This document shows, one piece after another, positions 55,367-58,017 of a stretch of 63,895 bases of DNA (positions within the stretch are counted from its first letter, which is position 1; the number at the start of each line of letters is the position of its first letter). The stretch is from Bacilli bacterium. Lineage in GTDB: Bacteria > Bacillota_I > Bacilli_A > RFN20 > CAG-826. A program made the translations under genes and the position numbers. The stretch is from contig JAKSVI010000005.1 in the NCBI GenBank assembly GCA_024408095.1, positions 1-63,895 on the forward strand. Direction: 5' to 3'. The notes beneath the pieces were generated by a model. That model was not told the origin of the DNA. It saw only the letters and a list, made by a program, of their open reading frames with translations, and made no database searches.

Positions 55367-55518
55367 GGATTTGGTTGGGGATTCCTAGGCAAGATTATGC
55401 CGATTACAAGTCTTAAAAATTAAAAAAATTTGATTTTGTCGAACTTTTTTGTGAATGGCATTAAATGTTTGGACATGTAAAGACAAAACGGCATGAAAAT
55501 AACAACTTACACAAAGTA

Positions 55519-55547
55519 TTGAAATTCTTGCCGATTGGTGTTACCAT
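55519..55547 (+). promoter_or_regulatory. promoter of a leaderless Fic transcript
   Basis: TTGAAA-N17-TACCAT with TG extension; ATG follows after 6 nt; no SD. Confidence 0.6.
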
Positions 55548-55553
55548 TTAGTC

Positions 55554-56447
55554 ATGAAATATTTAACAGTAAAAGAGTATTCAAAGAAATGGAATATATC
55601 GGAAAGAACTGCACGTAATTATTGTTCTTCTAGGAAAATAAAAGGAGTCTATCAAAATGGAGGCTGTTGGTGTATTCCGGAAGATGCTGATTTGCCACGA
55701 AGAATTAACGAAAATAAAAATAACAATTATCTTTTAAAAGCTCTTCGTTTAGAGAAAAAAGACGGAATTAAAGGAAGAATATATCATCGCTTACAAATTG
55801 ATTTAACTTATAATTCAAATCATATAGAAGGCAGCAAATTAACACATGATGAGACACGATATATTTTTGAGACTAGAACCATTGGTATTGAAGACAAATC
55901 GAAAGTTTATAAAATTGACGATATTGTAGAAACAATCAATCACTTTGAATGCATTGATCGAGTGATAGATTTTTGCAATTATTCATTATCTGAAAGTTTC
56001 ATAAAAGAATTACATAAGATTTTAAAAACTGGCACTAGCGATGCTAAAAAATCATATTTTGCAGTCGGAGATTATAAAAAATTAGAAAACGAGGTTGGTG
56101 ATATTCAAACTACGCCTCCACAGTTGGTTGAATCAGAAATTAATAAATTATTAGAGGATTATAATGCAAAAGACAAACATACTTTTGATGAAATCTTAGA
56201 TTTTCATGTTAAATTTGAAAGAATCCACCCTTTTCAAGATGGAAACGGAAGAATAGGAAGGCTTATAATTTTTAAAGAATGCCTTAAAAACAACATTGTT
56301 CCATTTATTATTACAGAAGAACTGAAAATGTTTTATTATCGTGGTTTATCAAAGTGGAACGATGAAAAAGGATGGCTCAGAGATACATGTCTAACCGGAC
56401 AAGATATCATTAAGAGTTATCTTGATTATTTTCACATAAAGCATTAA
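55554..56447 (+). CDS. Fic-family protein with N-terminal HTH
   Basis: HPFQDGNGRIGR Fic motif; YNSNHIEG; N-terminal wHTH-like KEYSKKWNISERT. Confidence 0.93.
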   Translation: MKYLTVKEYSKKWNISERTARNYCSSRKIKGVYQNGGCWCIPEDADLPRRINENKNNNYLLKALRLEKKDGIKGRIYHRLQIDLTYNSNHIEGSKLTHDETRYIFETRTIGIEDKSKVYKIDDIVETINHFECIDRVIDFCNYSLSESFIKELHKILKTGTSDAKKSYFAVGDYKKLENEVGDIQTTPPQLVESEINKLLEDYNAKDKHTFDEILDFHVKFERIHPFQDGNGRIGRLIIFKECLKNNIVPFIITEELKMFYYRGLSKWNDEKGWLRDTCLTGQDIIKSYLDYFHIKH

Positions 56448-56470
56448 AAAAGTTTGAATTCATCGTTTTT

Positions 56471-56542
56471 TATAAATGTCCTTAAATGTTTGGACACACG
56501 AGCACTTTTGAGACCAAATGTTTGGACACGCAAGGTTCAAAA
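56471..56542 (+). repeat. ~72-bp direct repeat, copy upstream of the HTH-HipA module
   Basis: ATGTCCTTAAATGTTTGGACACACGAGCACTTTTGAGACCAAATGTTTGGACAC; near match at 57946-58017. Confidence 0.88.
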
Positions 56543-56611
56543 TGGTTAATTAGAAAAAGAAATAATATTTTATATTGCTTCTTCGCTTAGATTTTTTAAA
56601 TAATTTTATTC

Positions 56612-56640
56612 TTGATAATAGGTCGGTTTACCGATATAAT
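56612..56640 (+). promoter_or_regulatory. promoter of a leaderless HTH-HipA operon with a palindromic operator candidate
   Basis: TTGATA-N17-TATAAT; TCGGT-tt-ACCGA in the spacer; ATG follows after 6 nt. Confidence 0.75.
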
Positions 56641-56646
56641 AATTAC

Positions 56647-57030
56647 ATGACATTTCTAGATTTAGTTTCAGAAAAGCAATTGACACTTTATAAAATTAGC
56701 ATGATGTGTGGATTACCAAAAACAACACTTCATGATATTTCCTCAGGTAAAAGCGATTTGCTAAATTGTAGTGGCAAAACATTATTAGATATATCGAAAG
56801 TGTTGGGCGTATCAATTGAAGATCTATTAATGTTAGAAAAAGAAGATAAAAAAGAAGAATTTCCATTATTTTTAAACAAATCAATTGAAAATTTAAGAAA
56901 AGCAATTAGAACTAATTCAACTCTCATCGATTGTTATTATGATGAACTTGCGAGTTCAATTAATGTTGCAGAAGTTGATGGATATATAACTAAAGAAATA
57001 GCTAACAAATTAAGAATGAGGTATCTGTAA
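56647..57030 (+). CDS. XRE-type HTH protein (putative antitoxin)
   Basis: LTLYKISMMCGLPKTTLHDISSGK HTH; immediately upstream of a HipA-like kinase. Confidence 0.82.
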   Translation: MTFLDLVSEKQLTLYKISMMCGLPKTTLHDISSGKSDLLNCSGKTLLDISKVLGVSIEDLLMLEKEDKKEEFPLFLNKSIENLRKAIRTNSTLIDCYYDELASSINVAEVDGYITKEIANKLRMRYL

Positions 57031-57031
57031 T

Positions 57032-57895
57032 ATGATAGATTTTACAAATTTTGAGACAAAGAAAAAAGCATATGGTGGAGCAAACGGAAATAAAATCTCA
57101 ATTATTTATAAAAACGAAATTTATATGCTTAAACTCCCAACGCATTCATTAAAAAATAAAAGTCTTTCTTATACAAACAGCGCAATTTCAGAATATCTTG
57201 GTTGCTCTATTTTTAAGATGCTTGGTATTGATGCACAAGAGACTATTCTTGGAAAATATGTATATCATAATGTCGAAAGAATCGTTGTTGCTTGCAAGGA
57301 TTTTGTAAAAAATGGAGAGCAACTTTTCGATTTTGCAAGTGTTAAAAATCAAATCATAGATTCTAATTCAAATGGTTATGGCACCGAACTCGATGATATC
57401 TTAGAAACAATTGAAAAACAAAGTGTTATAGACACAAAACTTTTAAAAGATCGATTTTGGGATATGTTTGTAATTGATGCATTAATTGGTAACTGGGATA
57501 GACATAATGGAAACTGGGGATTTTTGTACAATCAAAAAGAAGATTCACTATCACTGGCTCCCATATATGATTGCGGTTCTTGTTTATTCCCACAAATAGA
57601 TGAAGGAACGATTGATAAAGTTCTGAAATCAAAGCAAGAGCAAAACGCACGCGTTTTCGATGTTCCAACAAGTGCAATAATAAAAAATGGTGCGAGAATA
57701 AAATACTATGAATTCTTTGCTAAACACGAGTATAAAGATTGCGACAATGCAATTAAAAGAATTTCATGTAAAGTGAATGTCGAAATGATAAACAATCTTA
57801 TAGATGGTGTTACAGTTCTTAGTGAAAAGCATAAAGAATTTCTTAAATTAATGATTAATCTAAGGTATCAAAATTTATTGCTGAAAAATAGTTAA
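57032..57895 (+). CDS. HipA-like (CtkA-type) kinase toxin
   Basis: YMLK, SEYLG, DALIGNWDRHNGNWG, LAPIYDCGS. Confidence 0.9.
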   Translation: MIDFTNFETKKKAYGGANGNKISIIYKNEIYMLKLPTHSLKNKSLSYTNSAISEYLGCSIFKMLGIDAQETILGKYVYHNVERIVVACKDFVKNGEQLFDFASVKNQIIDSNSNGYGTELDDILETIEKQSVIDTKLLKDRFWDMFVIDALIGNWDRHNGNWGFLYNQKEDSLSLAPIYDCGSCLFPQIDEGTIDKVLKSKQEQNARVFDVPTSAIIKNGARIKYYEFFAKHEYKDCDNAIKRISCKVNVEMINNLIDGVTVLSEKHKEFLKLMINLRYQNLLLKNS

Positions 57896-57945
57896 CATTA
57901 GTTTTATACAGGGAATAAAAAAAGTTCGATTTAGTCGAACTAACT

Positions 57946-58017
57946 TATAATGTCCTTAAAGTTTGGACACACGAACACTTTTAGGACTAAATGTTTGGAC
58001 ATACGAGGTTTATAAAA
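57946..58017 (+). repeat. ~72-bp direct repeat, copy downstream of the HTH-HipA module
   Basis: ATGTCCTTAAAGTTTGGACACACGAACACTTTTAGGACTAAATGTTTGGACAT. Confidence 0.88.

What the first reader, a model, noticed from the sequence alone, without database searches (positions are those of the whole stretch)
55422..58017. Toxin cassettes separated by a conserved direct repeat with 32-bp-spaced cores
Seen: the HTH-HipA module is bracketed by ~72-bp direct repeats (56471-56542, 57946-58017). Each holds two AAA(T)GTTTGGACA cores exactly 32 bp apart, the first within an imperfect palindrome TGTCC...GGACA. A single core precedes the Fic gene (55463-55475). Each cassette has its own promoter. Known: integron arrays carry self-promoted TA cassettes between attC sites, but these repeats lack the GTTRRRY/RYYYAAC boxes and no integrase is in the window. 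Inference: recombination sites of an unrecognised cassette system, or a shared operator.
Basis: partly seen in the sequence, partly recalled or inferred. Interest (0 to 1): 0.65.

Follow-up and report, generated by a model that had tools for sequence, protein, structure and literature searches.

The report
Serine-recombinase attachment sites bounding toxin cassettes
The repeats between the Fic and HipA toxin modules are the attachment sites of a cassette-chromosome-like mobile element system of uncultured gut Bacilli; it stacks small toxin and defence gene cassettes next to a serine tRNA gene and is driven by a pair of large serine recombinases that this genome assembly lacks.

Summary
Three same-strand copies of a roughly 100-bp repeat bracket the Fic and HTH-HipA modules, with sub-repeats exactly 32 bp apart.

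The repeat is not an operator, a structured RNA or an IS remnant. It is the element-side arm (P') of a site-specific recombination site.

- **Junction evidence.** In relatives, five different cassette right ends are joined at one TG dinucleotide either to this repeat or to the 3' CCA end of a tRNA-Ser gene. The repeat and the tRNA share no homology.
- **Linked recombinase.** A large serine recombinase gene (LSR549), usually the second of a tandem pair, or its C-terminal remnant, ends about 60 nt from the repeat. This holds in 6 of 6 metagenome contigs and in six family genomes (co-occurrence p = 3e-7).
- **Complete element.** One complete 12.2-kb element gives a reconstructed site whose arms are 15/19 inverted-identical around TG.
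- **Shared cassettes.** The same cassettes (Fic, DUF4160/HTH, DUF4143 ATPase; 88.6-98% identical) sit in different arrays in different genera.

The closest analogue is the staphylococcal cassette chromosome (SCC) with its recombinase-less tandem cassettes. However, the recombinases are not Ccr equivalogs, the target is tRNA-Ser, the cassettes are about 1-1.5 kb, and P' carries a second unit at a conserved 31-32 bp spacing.

The window's array has no cognate recombinase in this 83%-complete assembly and no adjacent tRNA-Ser, so it is probably a stranded array. I class it as a new variant of a known kind.

The parts
55398..55455 (+). Left arm of junction A. It is a remnant of the 3' end of a DUF4143-ATPase gene (..ITSLKN*) plus the A-run/hairpin right-end module of a lost cassette.
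   Evidence: 84.7% identical over 59 nt to the ATPase-424 3' end and hairpin that abuts tRNA-Ser in G149. It is also 88% identical to the ATPase-428 end and 83% identical to the Fic end in G255 (junctions).
55456..55480 (+). Junction A right arm: a degenerate, single-unit P' arm (TG GCA TTAAATGTTTGGACA TGTAA). One 32-bp period is deleted.
   Evidence: The alignment with the two-unit sites upstream of the orthologous Fic genes of G027 and G255 shows a clean 32-nt gap. nhmmer gives a weak hit.
55519..55547 (+). Promoter-like site of the Fic cassette (TTGAAA-17-TACCAT with TG extension). It ends 7 nt before the ATG.
   Evidence: The leader is conserved with G027, G255 and G149.
55554..56447 (+). 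Fic/DOC-family gene with an N-terminal HTH_17 domain (297 aa): the cargo of cassette 1.
   Evidence: Pfam Fic 1e-18 and HTH_17 1e-5. It is 90% and 89% identical to genes in G027 and G255 that sit in other contexts.
56443..56476 (+). Right-end module of the Fic cassette (A-run plus weak hairpin, then ..TTTTTTATAAA): the left arm of junction B.
   Evidence: The same module follows Fic in G255, where it is joined to tRNA-Ser(cga), and in G107, where it is joined to a type-2 P'.
56477..56536 (+). Junction B: proposed crossover TG (56477-56478) plus the P' arm, type 1. The units AAATGTTTGGACAC start at 56484 and 56516, 32 bp apart.
   Evidence: nhmmer 4e-21, model R1 2.7e-19, alignment A1.
56612..56640 (+). 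Promoter-like site of the HTH-HipA cassette (TTGATA-17-TATAAT, 11 of 12). It ends 7 nt before the ATG.
56647..57030 (+). Xre/Cro-type HTH gene (127 aa from the ATG at 56647): the putative antitoxin or regulator.
   Evidence: Pfam HTH_26 1.8e-6. The same 127-aa gene was called in the Logan contig.
57032..57895 (+). HipA_C-only kinase-like gene (287 aa): the putative toxin and cargo of cassette 2.
   Evidence: Pfam HipA_C 5.5e-11.
57915..57950 (+). Right-end module of the HTH-HipA cassette (A-run plus hairpin AGTTCGA-N5-TCGAACT at 57923-57941): the left arm of junction C.
   Evidence: terminator-like on the minus strand. The module is homologous to those at C11_1 and at L013 6660 and 7582.
57951..58009 (+). 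Junction C: TG (57951-57952) plus the P' arm, type 1, two units 32 bp apart, with a 1-nt deletion in unit 1.
   Evidence: nhmmer 3.6e-17, model R1 2.9e-15.
58010..58259 (.). Unassigned DNA to the right of junction C. It holds no recognisable recombinase remnant and has no homologue in any fetched locus. The right limit of the array is undefined.
   Evidence: blastn of 58008-58330 found only the same-strain contig L061.

Best explanation
The repeat is the conserved element-side arm (P') of the attachment site of a family of integrative elements in small-genome gut Bacilli. These elements are moved by large serine recombinases, usually encoded as a tandem pair (LSR577 + LSR549).

**How it works (steps marked shown or inferred).**
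1. The chromosomal target is the 3' end of tRNA-Ser genes, GGA or CGA anticodon (shown).
2. Strand exchange occurs at, or immediately next to, a TG dinucleotide. This TG is the first two bases of TGTCC in the repeat and the complement of the CA of the tRNA's CCA end (inferred from junctions).
3. A circular element carries a site P-TG-P'. P is an inverted copy of the unit, GTGTCTTGACATTTC..; P' is TCCTTAAATGT-NNNNN-ACAC.. (reconstructed from an integrated element, so inferred).
4. Repeated integration into sites that already hold an element gives the array: flank-TG-P'[cassette 1]P1-TG-P'[cassette 2]P2-...-Pn-TG-tRNA-Ser (inferred; consistent with every array examined).
5. Each internal boundary therefore consists of the previous cassette's terminator and left arm, then TG, then the conserved P' arm. 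That is exactly the roughly 100-bp repeat seen in the window (shown).

**Cassette content.** Many cassettes have no recombinase: Fic, Xre-HipA, DUF4160/DUF2442-HTH, DUF4143 and DUF234 ATPases, ADP-ribosyltransferase, Schlafen, Thoeris. They would be moved, deleted or reshuffled in trans, as ccr-less cassettes are in SCC arrays (inferred).

**Second unit.** P' contains a second copy of the unit 31-32 bp (about 3 helical turns) inside the element. It is probably an accessory binding site on the same face of the DNA (inferred, untested).

**The window.** It holds three such junctions bounding two cassettes that each have their own promoter. No cognate recombinase was found in this assembly and no tRNA-Ser is adjacent, so the array is most likely stranded or rearranged (inferred).
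For: **(1) Junction swaps at one TG.** Five different left arms occur joined both to TG|TCCTTAAATGT.. (the repeat) and to TG|GCGGAGG.. (tRNA-Ser 3' end, reverse complement):
- the HTH159 cassette end: L016 versus G027 and G000 C11;
- the arm GTGTCTTGACATTTCAGAA: L065 and L068 versus G000 C11_2 (G269 carries the close variant ..TTTCATCA);
- the DUF4143-ATPase end: G149 versus window junction A;
- the Fic end: G255 versus window junction B and G107;
- the arm CCCCTTGGACAAAATC..ATTTCATCGAT: G005 versus G357.

The repeat and the tRNA share no homology, so homologous recombination cannot make these joints.

**(2) Array ends.** Arrays end at tRNA-Ser in G255, G149, L016, G022, L065, L068 and on G000 contig C11.

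**(3) Recombinase linkage.** LSR549 (Resolvase + Recombinase + Zn_ribbon_recom), or a 20-336-aa C-terminal remnant of it, ends about 60 nt beyond the repeat and converges on it. This holds in G269, G186, G107, G149, G022 and in all 6 metagenome contigs that carry the repeat; G027 carries remnants elsewhere in its array. Co-occurrence across 401 family genomes is 9 of 16 against 23 of 385, Fisher p = 3e-7.

**(4) A complete element.** L068 is a complete 12.2-kb element running from tRNA-Ser to P'. Its reconstructed site, GTGTCTTGACATTTCGGAA-TG-TCCTTAAATGTCAAAACAC, has arms that are 15/19 inverted-identical. This is the usual architecture of large-serine-recombinase sites.

**(5) Conserved architecture in relatives.** LSR549 relatives at 70-75% identity carry the same layout about 60 nt past their stop codon: TG plus two direct units 31-32 bp apart. 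The unit sequences are different.

**(6) Shared cassettes in different genera.** The same cassettes sit in different arrays and contexts: Fic 89-90% identical, HTH159 92%, ATPase-428 88.6-98%. By contrast, the nearest homologue of the flanking SpoIIE gene is 36% identical.

**(7) Distribution.** The repeat is patchy (16 of 401 genomes, 11 of 48 genera) and often lies at contig ends.
Against:
- No true empty site in the same chromosomal context was found.
- The own genome has no LSR549 orthologue. Its only pair of large serine recombinases, on C34, is 33-37% identical to the LSR577/LSR549 pair and sits beside a different repeat.
- The window array is not next to a tRNA-Ser, and junction A is degenerate.
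- The left arms are poorly conserved apart from an ATTTCA-like motif.
- The role of the second unit is unexplained. So is the concerted change of its variable pentamer: the DNA-binding regions of LSR549 copies linked to type 1b and type 2 are nearly identical.
- In L063, L067 and L068 the partner LSR577 is only a 129-aa remnant, so the need for a pair is not shown.
Confidence: 0.78

Rival explanations
1. The sites are real site-specific recombination sites, but the enzyme is not LSR549/LSR577. It could be the host XerC/D-type tyrosine recombinases, another tyrosine integrase, or in this genome the divergent serine recombinase pair on C34.
For: Every genome examined has two or more Xer-like tyrosine recombinases, and G107 has a 301-aa tyrosine recombinase about 1 kb from a partial repeat. 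The own genome lacks LSR549 but has another pair of large serine recombinases next to a similar Fic/Schlafen/ATPase array.
Against: No tyrosine recombinase gene is consistently linked to the repeat. LSR549 or its remnant is adjacent in every case where the flanks are available. The reconstructed palindrome around a dinucleotide fits serine recombinase sites better than a dif-like 11-6-11 site. The C34 array uses an unrelated junction motif.
Confidence: 0.1
2. The repeats are inert relics: decayed ends of old elements or a MITE-like intergenic repeat. On this view the mosaic of cassettes arose by homologous recombination between the 58-nt repeats and by ordinary deletions, not by ongoing site-specific recombination of small cassettes.
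For: Recombinase remnants show heavy decay. One-unit versions look like slippage products. Junction A is degenerate. The Logan contigs show only the reference arrangement.
Against: Homologous recombination cannot join the same left arm to the non-homologous tRNA arm at exactly the same TG in five independent cases. The repeat occurs only in arrays, always in one orientation, with no inverted partner ends or target duplications.
Confidence: 0.07
3. The repeat is a shared operator for the HTH proteins of the cassettes, or a structured RNA or leader element.
For: Every window cassette encodes an HTH domain. The sub-repeats 32 bp apart resemble paired binding sites, and the repeat lies upstream of the cassette promoters.
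Against: The repeat also precedes cassettes without any HTH gene (ATPases, a GlgA-type glycogen synthase gene) and cassettes in the opposite orientation, where the stop codon abuts the repeat. No RNA structure is conserved: the consensus energy is -0.74 kcal/mol with no compensatory pairs, and there is no Rfam match. An operator would not explain the tRNA-Ser junctions.
Confidence: 0.04

Closest known systems
Staphylococcal cassette chromosome (SCC/SCCmec) composite arrays moved by CcrAB or CcrC, including ccr-less tandem SCC-like defence cassettes (PMC11470126). Related examples are the Enterococcus cassette chromosome (PMC6222049) and the ccrDE island outside rlmH (PMC10581047).
   Same: Both use tandem genes for two large serine recombinases and integrate at the 3' end of a conserved housekeeping gene. 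Both have same-orientation repeats at every cassette boundary and stack several cassettes, many without a recombinase. In both, cargo is enriched in defence and toxin genes, and a primase-helicase gene lies near the recombinases (VapE-like here).
   Different: The recombinases score 116-132 bits against CcrB/CcrC models whose cut-off is 900, so they are not Ccr equivalogs. The target is the CCA end of tRNA-Ser rather than rlmH. Cassettes can be as small as 0.9-1.5 kb with a single gene or gene pair and their own promoter. The conserved arm is about 58 nt and contains two units 31-32 bp apart, much longer than the short Ccr integration-site repeats (my recollection is roughly 15-20 bp; not checked here). 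The hosts are uncultured Bacilli with genomes of about 1.1 Mb.
Phage-type large serine integrases (phiC31, Bxb1, A118/LI, TP901-1)
   Same: The domain set is the same: Resolvase + Recombinase + zinc ribbon. The reconstructed site is an imperfect palindrome of about 40-44 bp around a central dinucleotide, and the junctions share only that dinucleotide.
   Different: The genes come in pairs. No phage genes are present and there is no hit in viral contigs. The element forms multi-cassette arrays. There is an extra direct unit beyond the normal P' arm.
Integrons (IntI tyrosine recombinase, attC-bounded cassettes, including chromosomal arrays rich in toxin-antitoxin cassettes)
   Same: Both form arrays of very small cassettes in one site orientation, with toxin-antitoxin and other accessory cargo. 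In both, cassettes lack their own recombinase.
   Different: There is no IntI, no attC structure and no GTTRRRY boxes. The sites are conserved in sequence rather than in folded structure. Cassettes have their own promoters and either gene orientation. The enzyme is a serine recombinase and the platform is a tRNA gene.
Accretion arrays of integrative elements and cis-mobilisable elements (CIMEs) at tRNA or other 3' gene ends, and tycheposon-type cassette islands (bioRxiv 10.1101/2020.12.28.424599)
   Same: Both accumulate elements in tandem at a tRNA-linked site with repeated attachment sequences. Both include recombinase-less units flanked by such sites.
   Different: As I recall them, those systems mostly use tyrosine integrases and the repeat is a copy of the tRNA 3' segment. 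Here the repeat is the element arm, unrelated to the tRNA, and the linked enzyme is a large serine recombinase.

Membership tests
Integron | IntI-type tyrosine recombinase next to the array | tested here: not met
   The window array has no recombinase. The PF00589 hits in nine genomes are not linked to the repeat, apart from one near a partial copy in G107. The linked enzyme is a serine recombinase.
Integron | attC sites: structure-conserved imperfect palindromes with RYYYAAC/GTTRRRY boxes | tested here: not met
   The repeats are conserved in sequence, lack these boxes and show no conserved fold.
Integron | Mostly promoterless cassettes in one orientation, expressed from Pc | tested here: not met
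   Both window cassettes have promoter-like sites 7 nt before the ATG. Cassettes occur in both gene orientations.
SCC (staphylococcal cassette chromosome) | CcrA/CcrB or CcrC recombinases | tested here: not met
   In NCBIfam, the LSR577/LSR549 pair and the G000 C34 pair score 116-132 bits on their best Ccr models (CcrB, or CcrC for LSR577), whose cut-off is 900. CcrA scores are 41-82 bits against a cut-off of 700.
SCC (staphylococcal cassette chromosome) | Integration at the 3' end of rlmH (orfX) | tested here: not met
   Arrays end at tRNA-Ser(GGA or CGA) 3' ends.
SCC (staphylococcal cassette chromosome) | Direct repeats at every cassette boundary, and composite arrays that include recombinase-less cassettes | tested here: met
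   There are three copies in the window, three on C11 and seven full copies in G027:C16, all in one orientation. Most cassettes lack a recombinase.
Integrative element driven by a large serine recombinase | Recombinase with Resolvase + Recombinase + zinc-ribbon domains at one extremity of the element, next to the attachment site | tested here: met
   Met in relatives (L053, L063, L064, L067, L068) according to Pfam and position. It is absent from the window and, for this lineage, from the own assembly.
Integrative element driven by a large serine recombinase | Site is an imperfect palindrome around a central dinucleotide at which conservative exchange occurs, with no target duplication | tested here: inconclusive
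   The reconstructed P-TG-P' arms are 15/19 inverted-identical, and five junction swaps break at the TG. The exchange point itself has not been measured.
Integrative element driven by a large serine recombinase | Demonstrated integration and excision products (circle, empty site) | not testable with these tools
No orthologous empty site was found.
MITE or IS-end remnant | Terminal inverted repeats, target-site duplication, dispersed genomic copies | tested here: not met
   The own genome has only six copies, in two arrays, all direct. No inverted partner ends were seen.
Structured RNA or Rfam family | Conserved secondary structure with covariation, or a match to a curated model | tested here: not met
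   There is no relevant Rfam hit at E <= 1. RNAalifold gives -0.74 kcal/mol and no compensatory pairs.

The most novel reading that the evidence does not exclude
This would be an integron-like gene-capture platform built on serine rather than tyrosine recombination. A pair of large serine recombinases would individually capture, excise and reshuffle roughly 1-kb, self-promoted, recombinase-less toxin and defence cassettes at the CCA end of tRNA-Ser. It would use a three-motif site: an inverted P unit, a P' unit, and a second P' unit three helical turns away acting as an accessory or directionality site. Such an architecture has not, to my knowledge, been described for any large serine recombinase.
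Probability: 0.3. Interest if true: 0.75.

Novelty: new variant of a known kind. Interest (0 to 1): 0.58.

Why it matters
The finding shows how uncultured gut Bacilli with genomes of about 1.1 Mb, possibly RF39-like, acquire and shuffle toxin-antitoxin and anti-phage genes. They use a cassette-chromosome mechanism so far documented mainly in staphylococci and enterococci, but here it is anchored at tRNA-Ser and works at near-integron granularity.

It gives annotators a sequence signature, TG + TCCTTAAATGT-N5-ACAC repeated at 32 bp next to tRNA-Ser, for delimiting defence islands in fragmented metagenome-assembled genomes. The repeat also explains why contigs break at these positions.

It also provides a set of natural recombinase and site pairs, with several site variants. 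Their conserved second unit could reveal a new accessory-site layer in large serine recombinases, enzymes that are widely used for genome engineering.

Tried and rejected
**Rejected readings**
- **Dispersed repeat.** A genome-wide pattern search, blastn and nhmmer found copies only on C45 and C11.
- **Structured RNA.** An Rfam scan of 54-60 kb found nothing relevant, and RNAalifold on 17 copies found no structure.
- **Phage origin.** A scan of viral contigs gave 0 hits.
- **Tyrosine recombinase.** A PF00589 scan of nine genomes showed no consistent linkage.
- **Variable pentamers track recombinase specificity.** LSR549 copies linked to type 1b and type 2 are about 93% identical, with nearly identical recombinase and zinc-ribbon domains.
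- **The GTTCGA..TCGAAC hairpin is the chromosomal B arm.** A similar hairpin follows tRNA-Ser(cga) on G000 C63. However, the module travels with the 3' ends of Fic, the ATPases and HTH159, so it is better read as a shared cassette right-end terminator. This remains unresolved.

**Attempts that gave no answer**
- **Empty site through orthologues of the flanking SpoIIE gene.** The nearest homologue is 36% identical, so synteny cannot be used.
- **Empty site through tRNA-Ser(gga) loci of 60 relatives.** Several were occupied and several were plain. The G005/G357 pair shares only the 47-nt arm, so it is a fifth junction swap rather than an empty site.
- **Read-level evidence.** The Logan contigs of SRR17543907 simply break at or near the repeats and agree with the window.
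- **Homology of the DNA right of junction C.** None was found.
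Full report
**1.

The region contains three same-strand copies of a repeat that flank two gene modules.
- Fic with an N-terminal HTH_17 domain lies at 55554-56447.
- An Xre-type HTH gene (56647-57030) and a HipA_C-only kinase gene (57032-57895) follow it.

The core AAWGTTTGGACA occurs at 55464, 56485, 56517, 57958 and 57990. With one mismatch allowed there are 6 matches against 1.5 expected, and none of 100 shuffles reached 6. The paired cores are exactly 32 bp apart.

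The repeat is longer than reported, about 100 bp: 56443-56542 against 57915-58017. It has two parts. The first is an A-run plus hairpin (GTTCGA-N5-TCGAAC type) that directly follows the stop codon of the preceding gene. The second is a 58-60-nt core beginning with TGTCC. The copy before Fic keeps the hairpin part and only one unit.

In the own genome (G000: 1.11 Mb, 65 contigs, 31.8% GC, 83% complete) the only other copies are three on contig C11, again in one orientation. The repeat is therefore not a dispersed element.

**2. The repeat bounds shuffled cassettes in other genera**

A pattern scan, nhmmer and a sequence-only covariance model (R1) found the core in 16 of 401 genomes of the same family, spread over 11 of 48 genera. 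It also occurs in 'Bacilli bacterium' and 'Erysipelotrichia bacterium' assemblies, one named for horse faeces, and in six metagenome contigs. It is often within 100-300 nt of a contig end.

G027 contig C16 has seven full copies across 13 kb. The genes between copies are typical conflict genes:
- Fic;
- Xre plus an ADP-ribosyltransferase;
- ATPase_2/DUF234;
- AAA_14/DUF4143;
- a second Fic;
- a trypsin-like peptidase;
- Schlafen/AlbA_2;
- DUF4160 plus DUF2442-HTH;
- elsewhere Thoeris ThsA/ThsB, DUF4365 and a TOTE primase-helicase.

The same cassettes recur in different arrays, order and chromosomal context.

| Cassette | Identity to the G000 copy |
|---|---|
| Fic-297 | 90% (G027), 89% (G255) |
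| HTH159 | 92% (G027 and L016) |
| ATPase-428 | 98% (G027), 88.6% (G149) |

By contrast, the best homologue of the flanking SpoIIE-type gene in relatives is 36% identical. In an alignment of the Fic cassette from four genomes, homology begins at the TGTCC of the upstream repeat. It ends just before the TGTCC of the next repeat.

**3. The junctions show site-specific exchange at one TG**

Arrays end at the 3' end of a tRNA-Ser gene (GGA or CGA anticodon) that points towards the array. This is seen in G255, G149, L016, G022, L065 and L068, and on the own genome's contig C11 at tRNA-Ser(gga) 7272-7362.

Five different left arms, meaning cassette right ends, are found joined both to TG|TCCTTAAATGT.. 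(the repeat) and to TG|GCGGAGG.. (the reverse complement of the tRNA's ..CCGCCA end):
1. The HTH159 cassette end: L016 against G027 and C11.
2. The arm GTGTCTTGACATTTCAGAA: L065 and L068 against C11_2. G269 carries a near-identical arm ending ..CATCA.
3. The 3' end and hairpin of a DUF4143 ATPase gene: G149 against window junction A. Window 55398-55455 is thus a relic of a lost ATPase cassette, 84.7% identical over 59 nt.
4. The Fic end: G255 against window junction B and G107.
5. The arm CCCCTTGGACAAAATC..ATTTCATCGAT: G005 against G357. Only those 47 nt are shared.

The repeat and the tRNA arm share nothing but the TG, so homologous recombination cannot produce these joints. They are what conservative site-specific recombination with exchange at or next to the TG would leave.

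**4. The recombinase**

In G269 contig C48, two tandem genes for large serine recombinases end about 60 nt from the repeat and converge on it. They are LSR577 and LSR549, each with Resolvase + Recombinase + Zn_ribbon_recom domains.
- All six metagenome contigs that carry the repeat have LSR549 in the same position: full-length at 93-96% identity, or a remnant.
- C-terminal remnants of 20-336 aa sit beside the repeat in G186, G107, G149 and G022. G027 carries remnants further inside its array.
- G000 C11 retains only the short intergenic sequence that lies between the repeat and the LSR549 stop codon in other genomes.
- Across the 401 family genomes, the LSR549 C-terminus and the repeat co-occur in 9 of 16 against 23 of 385, Fisher p = 3e-7.

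L068 is a complete 12.2-kb element. It runs from the tRNA-Ser 3' end through the P arm and the cargo (Thoeris, DUF4365, a VapE fragment, a 129-aa LSR577 remnant, LSR549) to P' and the flank. Joining its two ends gives GTGTCTTGACATTTCGGAA-TG-TCCTTAAATGTCAAAACAC. The arms are 15/19 inverted-identical around the TG, which is the usual design of large-serine-recombinase sites.

The conserved repeat of the finding is therefore the element-side arm (P'). The variable 'hairpin' half is the end of the preceding cassette.

**5. The two units**

The core exists in several variants.

| Variant | Unit sequence |
|---|---|
| Type 1 (the window) | GTTTGGACAC, twice |
| Type 1b | GTTAGGACAC, twice |
| Type 2 | GTCAAAACAC, twice |
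| Type 3 | GTCGATACAC, twice |
| Type 4 | GTCCGCACAC and GTCGGCGCAC |

LSR549 relatives at 70-75% identity (G063, G252, G206, G074, G357, G144) have the same layout about 60 nt beyond their stop codon: TG plus two direct units 31-32 bp apart. The unit sequences are different, for example CAATTGTCGGCACCC, CAATTGTCGATGAAT and CAAATGTCGGCACCC.

A spacing of about three helical turns has been kept while the sequence has drifted. This argues that the second unit is functional, most simply as an accessory protein-binding site. This is inference only.

The often concerted change of both units is not explained by LSR549, whose DNA-binding domains are nearly identical between copies linked to type 1b and type 2. 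Loss and re-duplication of a unit is a neutral alternative. One-unit forms exist at window junction A, L052, L060 and L034.

**6. What the window contains under this model**

- **Junction A** (TG at 55456-55457) is degenerate. It reads TGGCA rather than TGTCC and has one unit.
- **Junctions B and C** (TG at 56477-56478 and 57951-57952) are full type-1 sites.
- **Cassette 1** consists of P', a promoter-like site, Fic and a terminator arm.
- **Cassette 2** consists of P', a promoter-like site, HTH, the HipA_C kinase and a terminator arm.
- Both promoter-like sites end 7 nt before the ATG, which suggests leaderless mRNAs.
- The HTH-HipA cassette has no homologue in any locus fetched.
- No tRNA-Ser is nearby.
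- The left edge is a deletion relic and the right limit is undefined.
- The assembly has no LSR549 orthologue.

The array is most likely stranded or rearranged. The canonical array of this genome is the one on C11, next to tRNA-Ser(gga).

**7. Comparison with known systems**

The closest known system is SCC/SCCmec. It has a tandem CcrA/CcrB pair of large serine recombinases and integrates at the 3' end of a housekeeping gene. It has direct repeats at each boundary and composite arrays. Ccr moves its ccr-less, defence-rich cassettes in trans (PMC11470126; see also PMC6222049 and PMC10581047).

Membership fails on the defining features.
- The recombinases reach only 116-132 bits on CcrB/CcrC models with a 900-bit cut-off.
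- The target is tRNA-Ser, not rlmH.

Integron membership also fails, on the recombinase, the site type and the cassette design.

I therefore describe it as working like SCC, with integron-like cassette size, without being a member of either family. I class it as a new variant of a known kind.

**8. Limits**

- No excision circle, empty site or enzymatic activity was observed.
- The exchange point is inferred from junction comparisons.
- Whether both recombinases are needed is unknown.
- Whether 1-kb cassettes move singly, rather than being reshuffled by larger deletions and insertions between sites, is unknown.
- What the second unit does is unknown.

Noticed in passing
G000 contig C34, 59279-68096 (not in the window): This is a second, independent cassette array: Fic-325, Schlafen/AlbA_2-427, DUF4143 ATPase-406 and DUF234 ATPase-491, all on the minus strand. 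It sits next to its own tandem pair of large serine recombinases (525 + 448 aa, 33-37% identical to the LSR577/LSR549 pair). It has different junction motifs: GCAACCCCCCTATTTTGTGAGAAAAA twice, and a duplicated ATTTTTTATAACTTTTGGCGCTTTTGC block before the recombinase gene.
   Followed up: partly
G000 contig C11, 11948-13780 (locus L014 3948-5780, minus strand): A 610-aa GlgA-type glycogen synthase with a C-terminal SCP2 domain lies between two attachment-site copies (C11_0 and C11_1). It therefore appears to be cargo of the array, an unusual housekeeping-type passenger.
   Followed up: no
window 55519-55554 and 56612-56647: Both cassette promoters end 7 nt upstream of the ATG, and no Shine-Dalgarno sequence can fit in between. 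The Fic and HTH-HipA transcripts are probably leaderless.
   Followed up: no
window 63224-63895: There are two tandem paralogous small genes (a 176-nt repeat, 84% identical). Their products share a conserved N-terminal leader ending in a double glycine (..NVTGG / ..NVSGG) followed by Cys-rich tails. They look like precursors of ribosomally synthesised, post-translationally modified peptides or bacteriocins.
   Followed up: no
window 62773-62831 and 63025-63083: A 59-nt segment of the 3' end of the 619-aa lipoprotein/peptidase gene is duplicated 252 nt downstream at 85% identity.
   Followed up: no
L013 (G027:C16) 5965-6423: An IS3-family transposase fragment is inserted into the terminator hairpin of the Fic cassette. 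It truncates the cassette's right arm at GTTCGAA.
   Followed up: partly
G000 contig C11, 7445-10111: An 888-aa TOTE-type archaeo-eukaryotic primase fused to an SF2 helicase is the cassette nearest the tRNA in the C11 array. Its terminator abuts the tRNA-Ser CCA end.
   Followed up: partly
G000 contig C63, 47917-48022: tRNA-Ser(cga) is followed by a GTTCGAAT..CGAAC hairpin very like the cassette right-end module, and then directly by genes that look chromosomal rather than cassette-like (not annotated here). This is either an eroded array or the source of that module.
   Followed up: partly
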